Virus record (IMG/VR): IMGVR_UViG_2713896787_000006
Strand: one strand, 5' to 3'
From: a virus
Taxonomy: Duplodnaviria; Heunggongvirae; Uroviricota; Caudoviricetes
Length of the DNA: 5,976 nt
Of the stretch, positions 1,438 through 4,863 are shown piece by piece. The position numbers and the translations under genes were made by a program. The first letter of the stretch is position 1. Each line of letters starts with the position of its first letter. The notes beneath the pieces are model-generated. The model was not told the DNA's origin and made no database searches. It saw only the letters and a list, made by a program, of their open reading frames with translations.

Positions 1438-1626
1438 TTATCCAGCCGGTATTTCGTTATTCAGGTTCAGCGATACTTTTTTTAACGGGAGGCATTCACC
1501 GGGGATTTTTTGTTCGTCCCTTACCTGAATGCAGGATGACTTACTGTCATAAATTCCGGTAATCACATTTTGTGGCTCACCCGTTATAAGAAAAACGGTC
1601 ATCACCAGTGCAAATGCTGAAGTCAC
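1438..1626 (-). CDS. Small hypothetical early protein (about 62 aa with GTG start; 54 aa if ATG at 1602 is used), YdaE-like position
   Basis: Track ORF 1438..1626. GTG at 1626-1624 overlaps the TGA stop of the upstream gene (GTGA, translational coupling) and has GGAG 4-5 nt upstream; the alternative ATG at 1602 has a weak SD. Product not recognised. Confidence 0.4.
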   Translation of the reverse strand: MTSAFALVMTVFLITGEPQNVITGIYDSKSSCIQVRDEQKIPGECLPLKKVSLNLNNEIPAG

Positions 1627-1811
1627 TGCTGTTCTCCGATAATACCAAGTTCAAGAAGGGCAATTCTGGAAAGTATGGAATTATCATTGAGAAGATAAGG
1701 TTCATATTTTCTCATCTTAATGGCATCTTCCGTAAACTCCCGGTTACTGAGCAGAACACCAATATCAAAACAACCTTCAGACGTATTAACGTTTGGTAAT
1801 AACGTTTCCAT
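1623..1811 (-). CDS. Small hypothetical early protein (61 aa, METLLPNVNTSEGCFDIGVLL...), Kil-like position
   Basis: ATG at 1811-1809 preceded by GAGGA with a 7-nt spacer; stop TGA at 1625-1623. The track's longer version (to 1916) begins with GTG and lacks an RBS. The Kil assignment is positional only. Confidence 0.5.
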   Translation of the reverse strand: METLLPNVNTSEGCFDIGVLLSNREFTEDAIKMRKYEPYLLNDNSILSRIALLELGIIGEQQ

Positions 1812-1828
1812 TATCGCGTCCTCAACAA

Positions 1829-1976
1829 TGAATTTTGTGATGCGGTGCCTGGTGCCTCCAGGTGACGTTAACCAGTTAACAATTAACGCCGGATACAGAG
1901 AATCCACCCATAACACTGTTTTTGGTTTTAACTGTTCCGCGTGCGCTCAGCCGCATTCACCGCATCACAAAATTCA
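1829..1976. repeat. Perfect 19-bp inverted repeat pair (TGAATTTTGTGATGCGGTG at 1829-1847; CACCGCATCACAAAATTCA at 1958-1976) flanking a 110-bp segment rich in internal symmetry
   Basis: Both arms checked base by base. Interior contains GTTAACCAGTTAAC, CCTGGTGCCTCCAGG and tandem CCGCAT(T)CAC. Left arm ends 17 nt upstream of the start codon of the 1623..1811 gene. Confidence 0.9.
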
Positions 1977-2063
1977 CTTTAAAAAGGGCGGCAGAGCAGT
2001 CACGGAGTAAAACTGATACCGCCAAACGTCACCAGAAAATTGATAACAGAGGGCGTTGCAGCG

Positions 2064-2100
2064 GGGTTGTCACTTAAGCGTATGGTCAACCTGACAACCC
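2064..2100. repeat. Stem-loop: 9-bp perfect stem GGGTTGTCA / TGACAACCC with 19-nt loop, within a GC-rich hairpin cluster
   Basis: Direct inspection. Further hairpins at 2112-2130 (CGGGG/CCCCG), 2143-2158 (CCGCG/CGCGG) and 2246-2261 (CCCTGA/TCAGGG, 4-nt loop). No convincing ORF on either strand between 1917 and 2363. Confidence 0.7.
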
Positions 2101-2375
2101 GGTGTCCTCAACGGGGAAGGAATAACCCCGCCATACTTACCGCCGCGCCATTTCGCGGAGTGCCACAACCGGAAGCGCACGTTCGAAGAAATCTAACGAC
2201 AAGCCTTCTAAGGGAAAGAGCTTCGCCGTACGCTTTCGCGTTATGCCCTGACTTTTCAGGGAAATATCCTTTCAGTAAACTGTCAGTACCGGATTCTTAT
2301 CCGTGTCCGGCGCACGACCACACGTGACAGCGTGTTGGTCTCCATTTTTAACCCAGAACCTCAATGGAGGATAAA

Positions 2376-2585
2376 ATGCCAAACAAAAAAAGAAATCCGC
2401 TTATTGAAAAACAGATTGAATGCCTGGTAAATCAACTCAGGCAATCAGGGTTATTAAAAACTCATTCAGAGTTGAGGCTCACAGAATCAGCATTCGACGA
2501 TAAATTAAATAATGTCCTTTATAATGGCATTATTGATTTTAATCGTTCTGTTGGTCGCCGCGGCCCTGCTGGTGTTTCCTTATAA
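2376..2585 (+). CDS. Small hypothetical protein (69 aa, MPNKKRNPLIEKQIECLVNQLRQSGLL...), sieB-like position but much shorter
   Basis: ATG at 2376 with strong SD GGAGG (2366-2370) and 5-nt spacer; the track start at 2364 lacks an SD. Convergent with the 216-aa gene (stops abut at 2585/2586). The C-terminal 20 aa (GIIDFNRSVGRRGPAGVSL) look frame-shifted relative to a hydrophobic +1 frame. Confidence 0.5.
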   Translation: MPNKKRNPLIEKQIECLVNQLRQSGLLKTHSELRLTESAFDDKLNNVLYNGIIDFNRSVGRRGPAGVSL

Positions 2586-2622
2586 TTACCAGTCAATCCA
2601 GAGTGGACCGTGTTCAGCGTAA
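2512..2622 (+). CDS. Candidate small hydrophobic ORF (36 aa, MSFIMALLILIVLLVAAALLVFPYNYQSIQSGPCSA) in the +1 frame of the 69-aa gene; possibly the true C-terminus after a frameshift
   Basis: 19 consecutive hydrophobic residues (one predicted TM helix) encoded at 2527-2583; ATG at 2512 and 2524, no SD; stop TAA at 2620-2622. Below the track's size cut-off. Overlaps the last 12 codons of the convergent 216-aa gene. Confidence 0.25.
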   Translation: MSFIMALLILIVLLVAAALLVFPYNYQSIQSGPCSA

Positions 2623-3236
2623 ATATAACTGTACACATCCAGATTATATTTGTGGTCTGTTAAGAACAGGCCGCAAATACATGCCGAAGCTTCCAGTGCA
2701 GCGGCTCTGTTACTGAATAACCATGTAGCAACATTCCAGCGTTTTTCTGCATCCCAGTCTTTATCAAGGCCTGATACCATGAAGAAACCGTTAGTGTTGC
2801 CATCAAATAATTCTGTTTCCAAATTTTTAAGCAATGCCTGATGGACTCTTGCCAGGTATTCCGCCGGAATTTCGCCACGAATTCTGATGAGATTGTCATA
2901 AACAAACATGTTCCCCGCATATGGCGATTTTTCTTTCTTGTTTTTTAAACCAGCATCATGAGCAAACTGATCAATTTCTTCTTCCGTTGGTTTCGTATTG
3001 ATGTTTTGCGCTGTCGTTTCTGCAATTTTATTTGCCACACTCTCTGAGTCGTGTTTATTTATAGACGCACAGAAATACAATCCGGTAAACGCATCGCGCA
3101 CATTACGAGCCATATTATCAGTGTCTTTTTTCGTTACCGATTCCAATTCAAGTTCGTTCAGACGATGACGAAGTGTGTGTGCTGCAATCTCCTGGATTGA
3201 AGGAGGTAAATCTTTAAATTCCATCGTCAACCTCAT
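2586..3236 (-). CDS. Hypothetical protein, 216 aa, second gene of the PL-proximal pair
   Basis: Track ORF with ATG at 3236-3234 overlapping the upstream TGA (TGATG, one-nucleotide overlap, translational coupling). Diverse protein-like composition. No family recognised by eye. Confidence 0.75.
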   Translation of the reverse strand: MRLTMEFKDLPPSIQEIAAHTLRHRLNELELESVTKKDTDNMARNVRDAFTGLYFCASINKHDSESVANKIAETTAQNINTKPTEEEIDQFAHDAGLKNKKEKSPYAGNMFVYDNLIRIRGEIPAEYLARVHQALLKNLETELFDGNTNGFFMVSGLDKDWDAEKRWNVATWLFSNRAAALEASACICGLFLTDHKYNLDVYSYIYAEHGPLWIDW

Positions 3237-3469
3237 CAGTCGGAGTTTCTTGCTAACCAGCGATGCGCGCCAGCTTCGGTTTTAAACGTTTTACTTTTGG
3301 TATACGTCATCGCGGTAAACGTACCGTCCTGGTTGGGAAACACGCCGCATACCAGAGATTCGCTGTTGCCAAGATCGATAGTATCCATGCTGACCTCATT
3401 TCCCCTTAACGCCGGGGTAGCGGAACAAAAACCTGCTGCATAGTTATTAAAGTTGAACCCTGCCGTCAT
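3236..3469 (-). CDS. Hypothetical small protein, 77 aa, first gene downstream of the PL-like promoter
   Basis: ATG at 3469-3467 with GAGG about 12 nt upstream; stop TGA at 3238-3236 overlapping the start of the 216-aa gene. Not arginine-rich at the N-terminus, so not an obvious N-type antiterminator. Confidence 0.6.
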   Translation of the reverse strand: MTAGFNFNNYAAGFCSATPALRGNEVSMDTIDLGNSESLVCGVFPNQDGTFTAMTYTKSKTFKTEAGAHRWLARNSD

Positions 3470-3570
3470 GTTCTTACGCCTCGGGCTGGCTACTTACCCC
3501 CTGACCACTGCCTGGTAACTCGAAGTATTGCCCTGCGTTCTGTGGGACGGGGTGGGTTGGTATGAAAGGA

Positions 3571-3612
3571 AGGATACCCATGGGTATTTAAAAAGTAAAT
3601 ACCCATGGGTAA
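3571..3612 (-). promoter_or_regulatory. PL-like leftward promoter with two palindromic operator sites (OL1 TACCCATGGGTA 3575-3586; OL2 TACCCATGGGTA 3600-3611)
   Basis: Two copies of the perfect palindrome TACCCATGGGTA spaced 25 bp centre to centre (the first is a perfect 14-mer ATACCCATGGGTAT). On the minus strand: -35 TTTACT (3599-3594), 17-nt spacer, -10 TATCCT (3576-3571). OL1 overlaps the spacer and -10; OL2 abuts the -35. Confidence 0.55.
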
Positions 3613-3653
3613 TTTTTTGATGTGTCTTAACTGGTGACTGGTTGTTTGGTGAG

Positions 3654-4073
3654 TTATGATGCGTTTTGTGCTTTCTTTTTACGGATTTCTTCGTAGATCA
3701 TATTGTAATACTGTTTTTTCTCTTCAAGAGTTTTTAATAAGTTATCCGCTTCACTTTCTGGCAGTTCGTCTAAGAGATCTAAAAAAATACGTTGTCGTGG
3801 CGTTAGAACCCTTGTTTCATAATTGGAGGCTGTGTTCGTTGATGATGAAACGATACCATCCATCCATCCCCGGGGTAACCCAAAGGACTCTTCTATAATC
3901 TCCACCATATCATCAGCGATCCGTTTTTTTCCTTTTTTCCCCTCTGGGTACAACATTCTTGATACATAAGAAGGCTCGCGACCGATCTTTCTGGCCACGT
4001 TAACCGCTTTACCATCGCATTTCTCATCACGAATTTTGATGAGTTGTTGTCGTCTAAATTCATATTTGTCCAT
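3654..4073 (-). CDS. Prophage repressor-like HTH DNA-binding protein (139 aa), CI-like position, too short for a LexA/S24 autocleavage domain
   Basis: ATG at 4073-4071 (MDKYEFRRQQLIKIRDE...). Probable HTH around GKAVNVARKIGREPSYVSRML. Divergent from the Cro-like gene, with operators at both ends. The track's TTG start at 4115 adds an implausible Cys-rich extension. Positional analogue of RacR/CI; I do not recognise the sequence itself. Confidence 0.75.
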   Translation of the reverse strand: MDKYEFRRQQLIKIRDEKCDGKAVNVARKIGREPSYVSRMLYPEGKKGKKRIADDMVEIIEESFGLPRGWMDGIVSSSTNTASNYETRVLTPRQRIFLDLLDELPESEADNLLKTLEEKKQYYNMIYEEIRKKKAQNAS

Positions 4074-4079
4074 AGGTAA

Positions 4080-4148
4080 ATAATAGATGCGATTACCGCA
4101 AGGTAAACAACCCAAGGGTATTGACTTTTGTTTACCTGTGGGTATTCT
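4080..4148. promoter_or_regulatory. Divergent immunity control region: three operator-like TACC-N4-GGTA sites (4094-4105, 4109-4120 imperfect, 4133-4144), PR-like promoter, and a possible PRM-like promoter for leaderless repressor mRNA
   Basis: PR: -35 TTGACT (4121-4126), 16-nt spacer, -10 TATTCT (4143-4148); site 4133-4144 overlaps the spacer and -10, site 4109-4120 abuts the -35. This mirrors PL. Minus strand: TATTAT at 4085-4080 lies 6 nt upstream of the repressor ATG, with a weak -35. SD AAGGAG at 4162-4167 precedes the Cro-like ATG at 4173. Confidence 0.5.
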
Positions 4149-4172: not shown

Positions 4173-4454
4173 ATGGAAGAATTAAGAATATTTCTCAATT
4201 CTCTTTCGTCAGATGAACAGCGTATGTTTGCATGTGAGTGTGGTACTAGCATCGGTTATCTAAGAAAGGCATTGAGTAAAGGTCAAATGTTAGGGGCATC
4301 GTTATGTGTCCTTATTGAGCGAGCCAGTAATGGTGAAGTTACACGTCAGCAACTAAGGCCTTTTGATTGGATGAATATTTGGCCCGAGCTGGAAGATACC
4401 AAAACGTTAACACAACCACTTACTAGGAGCTTGATTCATGAAAATCAAGCATGA
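4173..4454 (+). CDS. ydaS: Cro-like small HTH regulator, YdaS-family-like (93 aa)
   Basis: Strong SD AAGGAG with 5-nt spacer; first gene rightward of the operators. Translation contains FACECGTSIGYLRKALSKG ... LCVLIERASNGEVTRQQLRPFDW, matching my recollection of the YdaS/Cro-like signature (IERA-x-x-GEV ... LRP-x-DW). Symbol assigned from that recollection and synteny, not from a search. Confidence 0.75.
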   Translation: MEELRIFLNSLSSDEQRMFACECGTSIGYLRKALSKGQMLGASLCVLIERASNGEVTRQQLRPFDWMNIWPELEDTKTLTQPLTRSLIHENQA

Positions 4455-4863
4455 ACACATCCGCATGGCGATGAATGCCTGGGCGCGTCCTGATGGCGAA
4501 AAAGTTCCAGCAGCTGGAATAACCCAGGCTTATTTTGAGTTGGGTATGACGTTTCCTGAACTGTATGACGACAGCCATCCGGAAGCCCTGGCTCGCAATA
4601 CCCAGAAAATTTTCCGCTGGGTAGAGAAAGACACCCCTGATGCAGTTGAAAAAATTCAGGCGTTGTTACCAGCGATCGAAAAGGCAATGCCACCTTTGCT
4701 GGTGGCCAGAATGCGCAGCCACAGTTCAGCTTATTTTCGGGAGCTGGTGGAGACGCGGGAGCGACTGGTGAGAGACGCTGATGATTTTGTCGCAGTGGCA
4801 ATCGCCGGTTTCAATCAGATGAACCGTGGTGGCCCGGCAGGAAATGCTGTGGCAGTTCATTGA
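4438..4863 (+). CDS. ydaT: YdaT-family protein (141 aa), CII-like position downstream of the Cro-like gene
   Basis: Starts MKIKHEHI..., contains ...QKIFRWVEKDTPDAVEKIQALLPAIEKA... and ends ...AVH, consistent with my recollection of Rac YdaT. AGGAG 8 nt upstream; overlaps the ydaS-like stop by 17 nt. Confidence 0.8.
   Translation: MKIKHEHIRMAMNAWARPDGEKVPAAGITQAYFELGMTFPELYDDSHPEALARNTQKIFRWVEKDTPDAVEKIQALLPAIEKAMPPLLVARMRSHSSAYFRELVETRERLVRDADDFVAVAIAGFNQMNRGGPAGNAVAVH

What the first reader, a model, noticed from the sequence alone, without database searches (positions are those of the whole stretch)
2586..3469. Translationally coupled 77-aa/216-aa gene pair directly under the PL-like promoter, family unrecognised
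The two genes overlap as TGATG and are the first genes transcribed from the operator-controlled leftward promoter, the slot lambda uses for N and the Rac prophage for small ydaF/ydaG genes. Neither protein looks like an N-type antiterminator (no arginine-rich N-terminus), and I cannot assign either to a known family from the sequence. Early-left operons of lambdoid phages are hubs for host-takeover, anti-restriction and exclusion functions, and a small-protein-plus-larger-protein coupled pair is also the classic layout of toxin-antitoxin or effector-regulator modules. This is my best candidate in the window for an undescribed accessory system.
Basis: partly seen in the sequence, partly recalled or inferred. 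Interest (0 to 1): 0.65.

Follow-up and report, generated by a model that had tools for sequence, protein, structure and literature searches.

The report
Variable cargo genes in dicBF operon
The two reading frames are real genes at the head of a known prophage operon (dicBF, which also makes the cell-division inhibitors DicF and DicB): the first is the known small protein YdfA/YdaF, the second an uncharacterised swappable cargo gene. Its steady partner is a small gene on the opposite strand, not YdfA.

Summary
Both ORFs exist at the stated coordinates, but both starts are over-extended. Gene 1 is a 50-aa YdfA/YdaF protein (Pfam DUF1391; window 3236-3388, minus strand). It is 82% identical to Rac YdaF, so it is not an unrecognised family. 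Gene 2 is a 212-aa protein (2586-3224, minus strand; phrog_2151, function unknown). The TGATG overlap is not the conserved junction. The genes are 11 nt apart, with a GAGG Shine-Dalgarno over the ydfA stop.

The locus is a Qin-type dicBF early-left operon: repressor, two perfect palindromic operators, ydfA, cargo, DicF, DicB, YdfD.

YdfA and the 212-aa gene are not an obligate pair. ydfA matches about 4,350 of 5,426 complete E. coli genomes; the 212-aa gene about 600. The 212-aa gene also occurs after ydfB or ydfC.

The slot between ydfA and the DicF leader holds at least seven interchangeable forward cassette types. They share a ~55-aa N-terminal domain and differ in their C-termini. Most also carry their own convergent small antisense gene, which starts at a conserved SD-ATG.

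Here that partner is a 69-aa gene (2376-2585, plus strand). It accompanies the 212-aa C-domain in 74 of 74 viral-contig loci, and again in Salmonella P2-like prophages at 33-52% identity.

Function is unknown. There is no toxin-antitoxin or defence homology. Moderate interest.

The parts
3654..4073 (-). Prophage repressor gene (139 aa from ATG 4073). It matches phrog_5736, and its C-terminal third resembles DicA.
   Evidence: NF007257 DicA at 24 bits, far below the 101-bit cut-off, so it is not DicA itself
3575..3611 (.). Two perfect 12-bp palindromic operators, TACCCATGGGTA, at 3575-3586 and 3600-3611. Together they form a 37-nt hairpin with a 16-bp stem that looks like a terminator on both strands.
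   Evidence: weaker operator copies at 4109-4120 and 4133-4144
3571..3599 (-). Inferred dicBp/PL-like promoter: TTTACT, 17 nt, TATCCT. Its -10 overlaps operator 3575-3586, and operator 3600-3611 abuts its -35.
   Evidence: Read from the sequence. It matches 8 of 12 consensus positions and was not returned by the scan. The analogy is to K-12 dicBp, which lies upstream of ydfA and is repressed by DicA (PMC10448788).
3389..3469 (-). The 27-codon 'N-terminal extension' of the 77-aa ORF. It is not conserved as coding and is part of the 5' leader.
3236..3388 (-). ydfA/ydaF homologue, 50 aa, Pfam DUF1391. It is the first gene of the operon.
2586..3224 (-). 212-aa modular accessory gene (phrog_2151; some sources call it Ybl81). 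The N-domain is aa 1-55 (nt 3060-3224), the linker aa 56-99, and the C-domain aa 100-212 (nt 2589-2927).
2376..2585 (+). Convergent 69-aa gene ('as69', phrog_4274). GGAGG lies 5 nt before its ATG, and its stop codon abuts the stop of the 212-aa gene.
2038..2375 (.). Conserved right arm of the cassette, which is also the DicF precursor leader. It holds covarying hairpins and the conserved SD-ATG from which the antisense genes start.
1986..2037 (-). DicF small RNA
   Evidence: Rfam RF00039, 76.7 bits against a gathering score of 48
1623..1811 (-). dicB (cell-division inhibitor), 62 aa
1438..1626 (-). ydfD homologue (DUF1482)

Best explanation
The interval holds the first two genes of a Qin-type dicBF early-left operon in a lambdoid prophage of STEC-type E. 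coli. The genes are a 50-aa YdfA/YdaF (DUF1391) protein and a 212-aa two-domain accessory protein.

Inferred from the operators and from K-12: both genes are silent while the prophage repressor occupies two palindromic operators over the promoter, and both are transcribed when repression is lifted. That transcript runs on through the DicF leader to DicF, DicB and YdfD.

Shown: YdfA and the 212-aa protein are neighbours but not a dedicated pair. The 212-aa gene is one of at least seven interchangeable forward cassette types in the slot between ydfA and the DicF leader.
- The forward genes share a ~55-aa N-terminal helical hairpin and differ in their C-terminal domains.
- Six of the seven types carry their own small gene on the opposite strand. 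It starts at a conserved SD-ATG in the right arm and converges on the forward gene.
- In this window that partner is a 69-aa protein (2376-2585, plus strand).

Inferred at low confidence (about 0.2-0.25): the working unit is the 212-aa C-domain plus the 69-aa protein.
- The forward protein would be made on induction or infection.
- The small protein would be made from the opposite strand, probably in the lysogen.
- Convergent transcription would make the two expression states mutually exclusive.
- The two proteins would form a cognate pair, for example a lysogen-expressed exclusion factor and the phage's own antidote, as with sieB/esc. That would explain why they are exchanged together.
For: Operon identity:
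- DUF1391 at 96.6 bits, DicB at 127 bits, DUF1482 at 56 bits; DicF at 76.7 bits.
- K-12 Qin DNA homology flanks the cargo on both sides: window 3243-3426 at 91% and 1321-2316 at 81%. Between them K-12 has ydfB and ydfC instead.
- In K-12 the operon is one transcript from dicBp upstream of ydfA, and DicA represses it (PMC10448788).
- Operators.

Variable slot:
- Of 69 YdfA-seeded loci with enough downstream sequence, 53 have a gene with the MEFKDLP N-domain next. Fifteen of those are the 212-aa type, two of them frameshifted to 183 and 187 aa (13 are at least 200 aa). The other classes are 124, 112, 133, 129 and 122 aa, plus single loci of 54 and 106 aa. Three loci have ydfB next and 13 have neither.
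- The immunity module assorts independently of the cargo.
- The N-domain is a real domain family, with many 50%-identity clusters that have different C-termini.

Partner gene:
- In 74 of 74 as69 loci the 212-aa C-domain lies convergent; the stop codons abut in 71.
- Among complete E. coli genomes, as69 is in 597 genomes (744 places) and the C-domain in 600 genomes (751 places).
- In Salmonella P2-like prophages a C-domain relative (33-37% identity) sits after cox, with a convergent, overlapping 64-69-aa ORF. The 69-aa copy was compared and is 52% identical to as69.
- as69 has dN/dS of 0.19-0.27 and a strong SD.
- Other cassettes have their own antisense partners starting from the same SD-ATG. 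Three of these match PHROG families: phrog_4987, phrog_18692 and phrog_8894.
- Rac has sieB convergent on its DUF1391 gene at the same position.
Against: - The AlphaFold2 models are only moderate: pLDDT 65 for the 212-aa protein and 62 for as69.
- Co-variation of two adjacent genes lying between conserved recombination arms is expected from linkage alone.
- The Salmonella block also includes the homologous leader, so it is one inherited block rather than a fully independent reassembly.
- No convincing promoter was found for as69, so expression in the lysogen is an assumption.
- The 124-aa cassette has no antisense gene.
- Six of 47 distinct cassettes keep an intact 212-aa gene with as69 frameshifted or replaced, and one shows the reverse. 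Neither gene is strictly dependent on the other in a silent prophage.
Confidence: 0.55

Rival explanations
1. YdfA and the 212/216-aa protein form a translationally coupled two-component module (toxin-antitoxin or effector-regulator), in which the small protein controls the large one.
For: The genes are adjacent and co-oriented, with only 11 nt between them, and the SD overlaps the ydfA stop. In 53 of 69 ydfA-seeded loci a gene with the MEFKDLP N-domain follows directly.
Against: - The ydfA-containing query matches 4,352 genomes (9,229 places), while the 212-aa C-domain is in about 600 genomes (751 places).
- The 212-aa gene also follows ydfB or ydfC, with a different upstream junction.
- N-domain genes occur far from any ydfA in Stx2a phages.
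- ydfA stands alone in Rac and in 13 of 69 loci.
- There is no PADLOC or Pfam toxin or antitoxin match.
- The pair has no promoter of its own; it uses the operon promoter.
Confidence: 0.05
2. There is no functional pairing. The forward cargo gene and the antisense small gene are independent morons that sit side by side. The conserved N-terminal codons and the conserved antisense start are simply the homologous arms through which lambdoid prophages swap the DNA between them.
For: - Mosaic boundaries fall at the end of the N-domain and at the antisense start.
- The 124-aa cassette has no partner.
- In L145, L155 and L157 as69 is missing. In L155 and L157, where the flanking ORFs were listed, another antisense gene lies nearby.
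- The intact/disrupted table shows no dependency in either direction.
- The Salmonella locus shares the leader as well, so a single ancestral block is enough to explain it.
Against: - Both genes stayed intact, convergent and under purifying selection while diverging to 33-37% and 52% identity in a different phage type, with a different N-terminal domain on the forward gene.
- A convergent small ORF starting at one conserved SD-ATG recurs in six different cassettes.
- The N-domain is a diverged protein family, not merely conserved DNA.
Confidence: 0.3
3. The cargo acts in cis on the operon. The forward protein and/or antisense transcription from the right arm would tune read-through, RNase III/E processing or stability of the DicF/DicB transcript, rather than acting on the host or on other phages.
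For: - The cassette sits immediately upstream of the structured DicF precursor leader.
- No terminator-like site lies between 2376 and 3236, so PL transcripts must cross as69 in antisense.
- A CTCCAT...ATGGAG pairing that could occlude the antisense SD is conserved.
Against: - Purifying selection on the as69 protein sequence and its conservation in Salmonella loci that lack DicF argue against a purely RNA-level, DicF-specific role.
- K-12 and the loci with no cargo gene (ydfA-to-dicF spacing of 262-264 nt) still carry DicF and DicB downstream.
Confidence: 0.1

Closest known systems
dicBF operon of cryptic prophage Qin, E. coli K-12 (dicA | ydfA-ydfB-ydfC-dicF-dicB-ydfD)
   Same: - Same order: repressor gene, operator-controlled promoter, ydfA first, then the long structured leader, DicF, DicB and YdfD.
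- DNA is 91% identical over ydfA and 81% over the leader to ydfD.
- The ydfABC products are likewise of unknown function (PMC5069750, PMC10448788).
   Different: - ydfB and ydfC are replaced by the 212-aa gene plus the antisense 69-aa gene.
- The repressor has a different immunity type; only its C-terminal third resembles DicA.
- The 5' leader is about 180 nt rather than about 70 nt.
Rac prophage early-left region (racR-ydaG-ydaF / sieB / kilS-kilR)
   Same: - It has a DUF1391 gene 82% identical to gene 1.
- A gene on the opposite strand (sieB) converges on and overlaps the 3' end of that DUF1391 gene.
- A small RNA and an FtsZ inhibitor follow.
- The rightward genes are YdaS/YdaT-like in both.
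   Different: - Rac has no gene with the MEFKDLP N-domain.
- No sequence similarity was seen between the as69 and sieB upstream regions.
- Rac has ydaG ahead of ydaF.
- This window carries DicF and DicB, not KilS and KilR.
sieB/esc superinfection exclusion with the sas antisense RNA in P22 and lambda (from my own knowledge: Ranade & Poteete 1993; not checked here)
   Same: An exclusion gene inside the early-left operon region, a phage-encoded self-antidote, and antisense transcription that switches between them. This is the functional model I propose for the 212-aa C-domain and As69.
   Different: - There is no sequence or fold similarity.
- esc is an in-frame product of sieB, not a separate convergent gene.
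- Nothing here has been shown to exclude phage.
Polymorphic toxin/immunity cassettes (CDI CdiA-CT/CdiI, Rhs-CT/RhsI)
   Same: A constant N-terminal part is fused to interchangeable C-terminal domains. Each C-terminal type is linked to its own small gene, and the units are swapped between conserved flanks.
   Different: - The partner gene is convergent rather than co-directional.
- The proteins are small and cytoplasmic, with no secretion or delivery domain.
- There is no toxin-domain homology.
- No toxicity has been shown.
PHROG families phrog_2151 (212 aa), phrog_751 (YdfA) and phrog_4274 (69 aa)
   Same: The 212-aa and 69-aa proteins match over the full profile (E = 2.7e-147 and 1.4e-51). 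The 77-aa ORF that contains YdfA matches phrog_751 over positions 2-69 of 70 (E = 4.8e-45).
   Different: These are catalogue entries with no function attached. Neither the C-domain nor the 69-aa gene occurs in any of 50,697 GenBank phage records; they occur only in prophages.

Membership tests
DUF1391 / YdfA-YdaF family (Pfam PF07151) | Score above the Pfam gathering threshold over the whole model | tested here: met
   96.6 bits against a cut-off of 27.3, model positions 1-48 of 48, residues 29-76 of the 77-aa ORF
DUF1391 / YdfA-YdaF family (Pfam PF07151) | A protein of about 50 aa, close to the K-12 members | tested here: met
   50 aa from ATG 3388. 82% identical to YdaF. DNA 91% identical to ydfA.
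Qin-type dicBF operon | DicF small RNA followed by dicB and ydfD, downstream of ydfA on the same strand | tested here: met
   Rfam DicF at 76.7 bits; Pfam DicB at 127.3 bits and DUF1482 at 56.4 bits
Qin-type dicBF operon | A repressor gene upstream on the same strand, with operator-controlled promoter dicBp ahead of ydfA | tested here: inconclusive
   The repressor ORF and two perfect palindromic operators are present. The promoter matches only 8 of 12 consensus positions and there are no transcript data. The repressor is not DicA: 24 bits against a cut-off of 101.
Qin-type dicBF operon | ydfB and ydfC between ydfA and dicF | tested here: not met
   There is no homology to ydfB or ydfC. They are replaced by the 212-aa gene and the antisense 69-aa gene.
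Type II toxin-antitoxin pair (ydfA plus the 212-aa gene) | The two genes co-occur obligately as a unit | tested here: not met
   The ydfA-containing query matches 4,352 genomes, against about 600 for the 212-aa gene. The 212-aa gene also occurs after ydfB or ydfC.
Type II toxin-antitoxin pair (ydfA plus the 212-aa gene) | Homology to known toxin or antitoxin folds or families; the toxin is growth-inhibitory and neutralised by the partner | tested here: not met
   The homology part was tested. There are no significant Pfam, NCBIfam or PADLOC hits; the best PADLOC hit for the 77-aa ORF is AbiEi at E = 0.039, 11.6 bits. Toxicity cannot be tested with these tools.
Lambda N-type antiterminator | An arginine-rich N-terminal RNA-binding motif, with the gene first in the PL operon | tested here: not met
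   YdfA has 2 Arg in 50 aa and none in its first 40 residues. The 212-aa protein starts MEFKDLPPSIQE. Neither has an antiterminator family hit.
Known anti-phage defence systems (PADLOC-DB 2.0) | A match of any component to a defence-system model | tested here: not met
   Nothing significant for the 212-aa, 69-aa or repressor proteins
Polymorphic effector/immunity-like cassette (architecture only) | A constant N-terminal region, interchangeable C-terminal regions, and a linked small gene specific to each type | tested here: met
   At least seven forward C-terminal types share one N-domain, and six have a matched antisense ORF. The 124-aa type lacks one.
Polymorphic effector/immunity-like cassette (architecture only) | The C-terminal domain is toxic or active, and the cognate small protein binds and neutralises it specifically | not testable with these tools
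   No multimer prediction was available and no experiments were possible. The intact/disrupted pattern is uninformative.

The most novel reading that the evidence does not exclude
The slot between ydfA and the DicF leader is a polymorphic locus of cognate convergent gene pairs. Each cassette would encode an induction- or infection-expressed protein (shared N-terminal adaptor plus a type-specific C-domain) and a small protein on the opposite strand that recognises only that C-domain. Together they would act as a phage-versus-phage lock and key: a lysogen-expressed exclusion or immunity factor, and its type-specific antidote or target. Convergent transcription would switch between the two states. 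The 212-aa/69-aa pair would be one allele, old enough to be shared with Salmonella P2-like prophages.
Probability: 0.2. Interest if true: 0.75.

Novelty: new member of a known kind. Interest (0 to 1): 0.4.

Why it matters
The dicBF operon is present in most E. coli, often in several copies in EHEC. Its DicF and DicB products affect cell division, metabolism, phage resistance and (per my own recollection, not checked here) EHEC virulence. Its promoter-proximal genes have never been given a function.

This work shows that the region is not 'ydfABC' in general. It is a hypervariable slot with a constant first gene (ydfA), a shared N-terminal domain and interchangeable cargo. The cargo often comes as a convergent gene pair.

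That gives a concrete, cheap set of experiments:
- express matched and mismatched pairs;
- map transcripts with and without the repressor;
- challenge with related lambdoid phages.

If the pairs turn out to be cognate exclusion/anti-exclusion or effector/immunity modules, this would be a new class of prophage competition locus, present in about 11% of complete E. coli genomes for this allele alone. If not, the result is still a corrected annotation: true start codons, family assignment and operon context.

Tried and rejected
Searches with no useful result:
- Pfam, NCBIfam and PADLOC gave nothing for the 212-aa and 69-aa proteins. Pfam gave nothing for the alternative cargo proteins and their antisense partners either.
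- PDB sequence and profile searches gave nothing below E = 0.1. The weak YdfA hit to phage head-decoration protein (E = 0.11) probably explains the 'head-DNA stabilization protein D' label seen in some phage records. I reject it as homology.
- The afdb50 library was unavailable.
- The AlphaFold2 model of as69 is a two-helix hairpin at pLDDT 62. I judged it too simple for a fold search.
- A profile search of 1.84 billion representative proteins found the full-length 212-aa family as one 50%-identity cluster, many clusters sharing only the N-domain, and only two distant full C-domain relatives.
- A genome-contig scan with the as69 profile found no relatives.
- Literature searches for ydfA, DUF1391, Ybl81, the WP accessions and the PHROG ids found no functional data. 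The 'ydfA' in the IbfA paper is an unrelated plasmid gene.

Analyses that led nowhere:
- I looked for a promoter for as69 in E. coli and Salmonella and found none convincing.
- I compared the Rac sieB upstream region with the as69 upstream region and saw no similarity.
- I tabulated intact against disrupted copies of the pair, looking for an addiction signature, and found no asymmetry.

Considered and rejected:
- N-type antiterminator.
- The 77-aa and 216-aa start codons.
- A ydfA/212-aa toxin-antitoxin pair.
Full report
**1. What is in the window**

The window matches STEC-type E. coli chromosomes. Positions 2400-3700 are 100% identical to O111 and related strains.

Reading the minus strand from right to left:
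- A repressor gene lies at 3654-4073 (phrog_5736). Only its C-terminal third resembles DicA.
- Two perfect 12-bp palindromes, TACCCATGGGTA, lie at 3575-3586 and 3600-3611. Weaker copies sit in the divergent repressor/cro region at 4109-4120 and 4133-4144.
- The 77-aa ORF and then the 216-aa ORF follow.
- A 69-aa ORF lies on the opposite strand at 2376-2585.
- A 340-nt conserved leader follows.
- DicF lies at 1986-2037 (Rfam, 76.7 bits).
- dicB (Pfam, 127 bits) and a ydfD/DUF1482 gene follow.

On the plus strand sit YdaS-like (cro-type) and YdaT-like (cII-type) genes.

This is therefore a Qin-type dicBF operon. It is not a Rac-type locus, although Rac is built along similar lines.

In K-12 the operon is transcribed as one RNA from dicBp, upstream of ydfA. 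DicA represses it. The ydfABC products have no known function (PMC10448788 and PMC5069750).

**2. Checking the observation**

The ORFs and the TGATG are there, but both proposed start codons are wrong.

*Gene 1.*
- The DUF1391 model starts at residue 29 of the 77-aa ORF.
- RefSeq annotates 3236-3388, which is 50 aa.
- Across 155 related loci the 38 nt before that ATG are conserved, including a GAGG Shine-Dalgarno.
- Further upstream there are at least four unrelated sequences. A 1-nt length change in a C-run puts the upstream ATG in or out of frame. K-12 has no such ATG.

*Gene 2.*
- Homologues almost all begin MEFKDLP.
- Where the gene follows ydfB or ydfC, the overlapping ATG is missing; in three of those loci an in-frame TAG directly precedes the MEF start. 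A GAGG/GGGG Shine-Dalgarno is kept.

The real layout is therefore: ydfA stop (3236-3238), 11 nt holding the SD, then ATG at 3224.

All three genes are under purifying selection, so they are real genes.

The promoter is my inference: TTTACT, 17 nt, TATCCT at 3599-3571, overlapping the operators. It did not pass the consensus scan.

**3. What the two proteins are**

*Gene 1* is YdfA/YdaF.
- Pfam DUF1391 scores 96.6 bits.
- It is 82% identical to Rac YdaF.
- Its DNA is 91% identical to Qin ydfA.
- The family is known but has no known function.

*Gene 2* is phrog_2151 (E = 2.7e-147).
- NCBI calls it hypothetical, and a few sources call it Ybl81.
- It occurs only in Escherichia and Salmonella.
- It has no Pfam, NCBIfam, PADLOC or PDB match.
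- The AlphaFold2 model (pLDDT 65) shows an N-terminal helical part (aa 1-90) and a C-terminal alpha/beta domain (aa 100-212).
- Fold searches were uninformative.
- An exhaustive profile search shows that the full-length family is one 50%-identity cluster.
- By contrast, the first ~55 residues are shared with dozens of small-protein clusters that have unrelated C-termini.
- The C-domain has only rare distant relatives.

**4. Are the two genes a unit? No**

- The ydfA-containing query matches 4,352 of 5,426 complete E. coli genomes (9,229 places).
- The 212-aa C-domain is in 600 genomes (751 places).
- Among 69 YdfA-seeded viral-contig loci with enough downstream sequence:
  - 53 have a gene with the MEFKDLP N-domain directly after ydfA;
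  - 15 of those are the 212-aa type, two of them frameshifted (183 and 187 aa);
  - the other classes are 124, 112, 133, 129 and 122 aa, plus single loci of 54 and 106 aa;
  - 3 loci have ydfB next, and 13 have neither.
- The 212-aa gene also occurs after ydfB, after ydfB-ydfC, or after a ydfC-like gene with no ydfA.
- N-domain genes occur in the ea region of Stx2a phages, far from any ydfA.
- The immunity module assorts independently of the cargo.

The idea that the small and large gene form a module is not.

**5. The steadier partner**

The 69-aa gene on the opposite strand (2376-2585) has these features:
- GGAGG lies 5 nt before its ATG.
- Its dN/dS is about 0.25.
- It belongs to phrog_4274.
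- Its stop codon abuts the stop of the 212-aa gene.

Its association with the C-domain is tight:
- All 74 viral-contig loci found with the as69 profile have the 212-aa C-domain convergent on it.
- The E. coli genome counts for the two genes are almost the same: 597 genomes (744 places) against 600 genomes (751 places).

The C-domain's distant relatives (33-37% identity) lie in Salmonella P2-like prophages, in the order integrase, repressor C, Cox, relative.
- There the N-terminal part is unrelated.
- A convergent, overlapping 64-69-aa ORF is again present. The 69-aa copy was compared and is 52% identical to as69.

*Caveat:* that Salmonella block also contains a homologue of the DicF leader, though not DicF itself. 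It is one old block, not a fully independent reassembly.

**6. The pattern generalises**

The right arm of the slot is conserved in all cassette types and in Salmonella. It holds:
- two hairpins, the second of which covaries;
- a CTCCAT...ATGGAG pairing;
- the motif ATGGAGGATAAAATG.

Different antisense ORFs start at that same SD-ATG and match the forward type one to one:

| Forward gene | Antisense partner |
|---|---|
| 212 aa | 69 aa (phrog_4274) |
| 112 aa | 64 aa (phrog_4987) |
| 133 aa | 92 aa (phrog_18692) |
| 122 aa | 100 aa (phrog_8894) |
| 129 aa | about 99 aa |
| 106 aa | 91 aa |
| 124 aa | none; the right arm is truncated |

In L145, L155 and L157 as69 is missing. In L155 and L157, where the flanking ORFs were listed, another antisense gene (phrog_1244) lies nearby.

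In Rac, sieB occupies the equivalent antisense position, converging on the DUF1391 gene.

**7. Mechanism**

*Shown:*
- the operon context;
- the corrected gene models;
- the modular N-plus-C build of the forward gene;
- cassette exchange between conserved arms;
- the persistent linkage of the C-domain with as69.

*Inferred:*
- The forward gene is expressed only on derepression.
- as69 is expressed from the opposite strand. No promoter was found for it.
- Because no terminator lies between the two genes, convergent transcription would make the two states exclusive.
- The two products would then be a cognate pair, for example an exclusion factor and its antidote in the manner of sieB/esc.

I put about 0.2-0.25 on that last step.

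The main rival, at 0.3, is that the linkage is only physical. The intact/disrupted table shows no dependency in either direction.

**8. Novelty and score**

- Gene 1 is already known as a family.
- Gene 2 and as69 are catalogued but uncharacterised. They are absent from 50,697 GenBank phage genomes.
- The polymorphic convergent-pair layout of the slot is, as far as I could find, undescribed. Its function is unproven.
- I file the whole as a new member of a known kind: accessory or moron cargo in a lambdoid early-left operon.
- Interest is 0.4.

Noticed in passing
window 2376-2585 (+): A 69-aa gene (phrog_4274) lies convergent with the 212-aa gene, and their stop codons abut. It has a strong GGAGG SD and dN/dS of about 0.25. 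A homologue 52% identical sits in the same convergent position in Salmonella P2-like prophages. In 12 of 85 copies it is frameshifted (269 instead of 270 nt), and the truncated product diverges within the A7 run near the 5' end.
   Followed up: yes
window 3575-3611: The two operators form a perfect 37-nt hairpin with a 16-bp stem. It is followed by a T-rich tail on both strands, and the tail is better on the plus strand (ATTTTTTGAT). It could therefore also serve as a bidirectional terminator. One side would insulate ydfA from read-through of the repressor gene; the other would stop plus-strand (antisense) transcripts before they reach the repressor gene.
   Followed up: partly
window 2038-2375; L002 3575-3880; L161 6830-7140; L163 6850-7130: The DicF precursor leader contains a long conserved stem of about 24 bp with a few compensatory changes, plus smaller covarying hairpins. 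A homologous element is present in Salmonella P2-like prophages that have no DicF.
   Followed up: partly
window 2340-2378 (+), and the same place in L008, L028, L036, L058, L081 and L163: A conserved CTCCAT sequence lies about 18 nt upstream of ATGGAG and could pair with the Shine-Dalgarno of the antisense genes. That suggests translational control. The pairing would form equally on the operon-sense RNA.
   Followed up: no
loci L003-L160, between ydfA and dicF: At least seven forward cassette types share the MEFKDLP N-domain. Six have a type-specific convergent antisense ORF of 64-100 aa, and three of those match their own PHROG family of unknown function (phrog_4987, phrog_18692, phrog_8894). 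In L155 and L157 a 211-252-aa antisense gene (phrog_1244) lies near the site where as69 is missing.
   Followed up: partly
window 3389-3469 (-): The motif GAACATGACGGC is kept in several otherwise different leaders. Depending on a 1-nt C-run length, its ATG opens either a 20-codon uORF ending at GGCGTTAAGG or an in-frame extension of ydfA. This could be a leader peptide or an RNA element.
   Followed up: partly
window 4173-4454 (+) and 4438-4863 (+): A YdaS-like (cro-type) gene and a YdaT-like (cII-type, phrog_163) gene overlap by 17 nt. Pfam labels these families as 'toxins', but their position and PHROG names indicate lysis-lysogeny regulators.
   Followed up: no
window about 1190-1325: A run of masked or unknown bases (translated as X) lies inside what RefSeq annotates as a truncated RecE-type exonuclease pseudogene in matching genomes. 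The left end of the prophage is decayed, with partial integrase and exonuclease genes.
   Followed up: no
window 1623-1916 (-) and 3654-4115 (-): The longest-ORF calls also over-extend dicB (97 aa against the 62 aa annotated in RefSeq) and the repressor (TTG at 4115 against the RefSeq start ATG at 4073).
   Followed up: partly
L161 8582-8669: A C4 antisense RNA (Rfam RF01695, 76.8 bits), the P1/P7-type immunity RNA, lies in the Salmonella P2-like element that carries the C-domain relative.
   Followed up: no
phage records (for example ON470580): YdfA homologues are annotated there as 'head-DNA stabilization protein D'. This is probably a mis-annotation that stems from a weak similarity (E = 0.11) to phage head-decoration protein.
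   Followed up: partly
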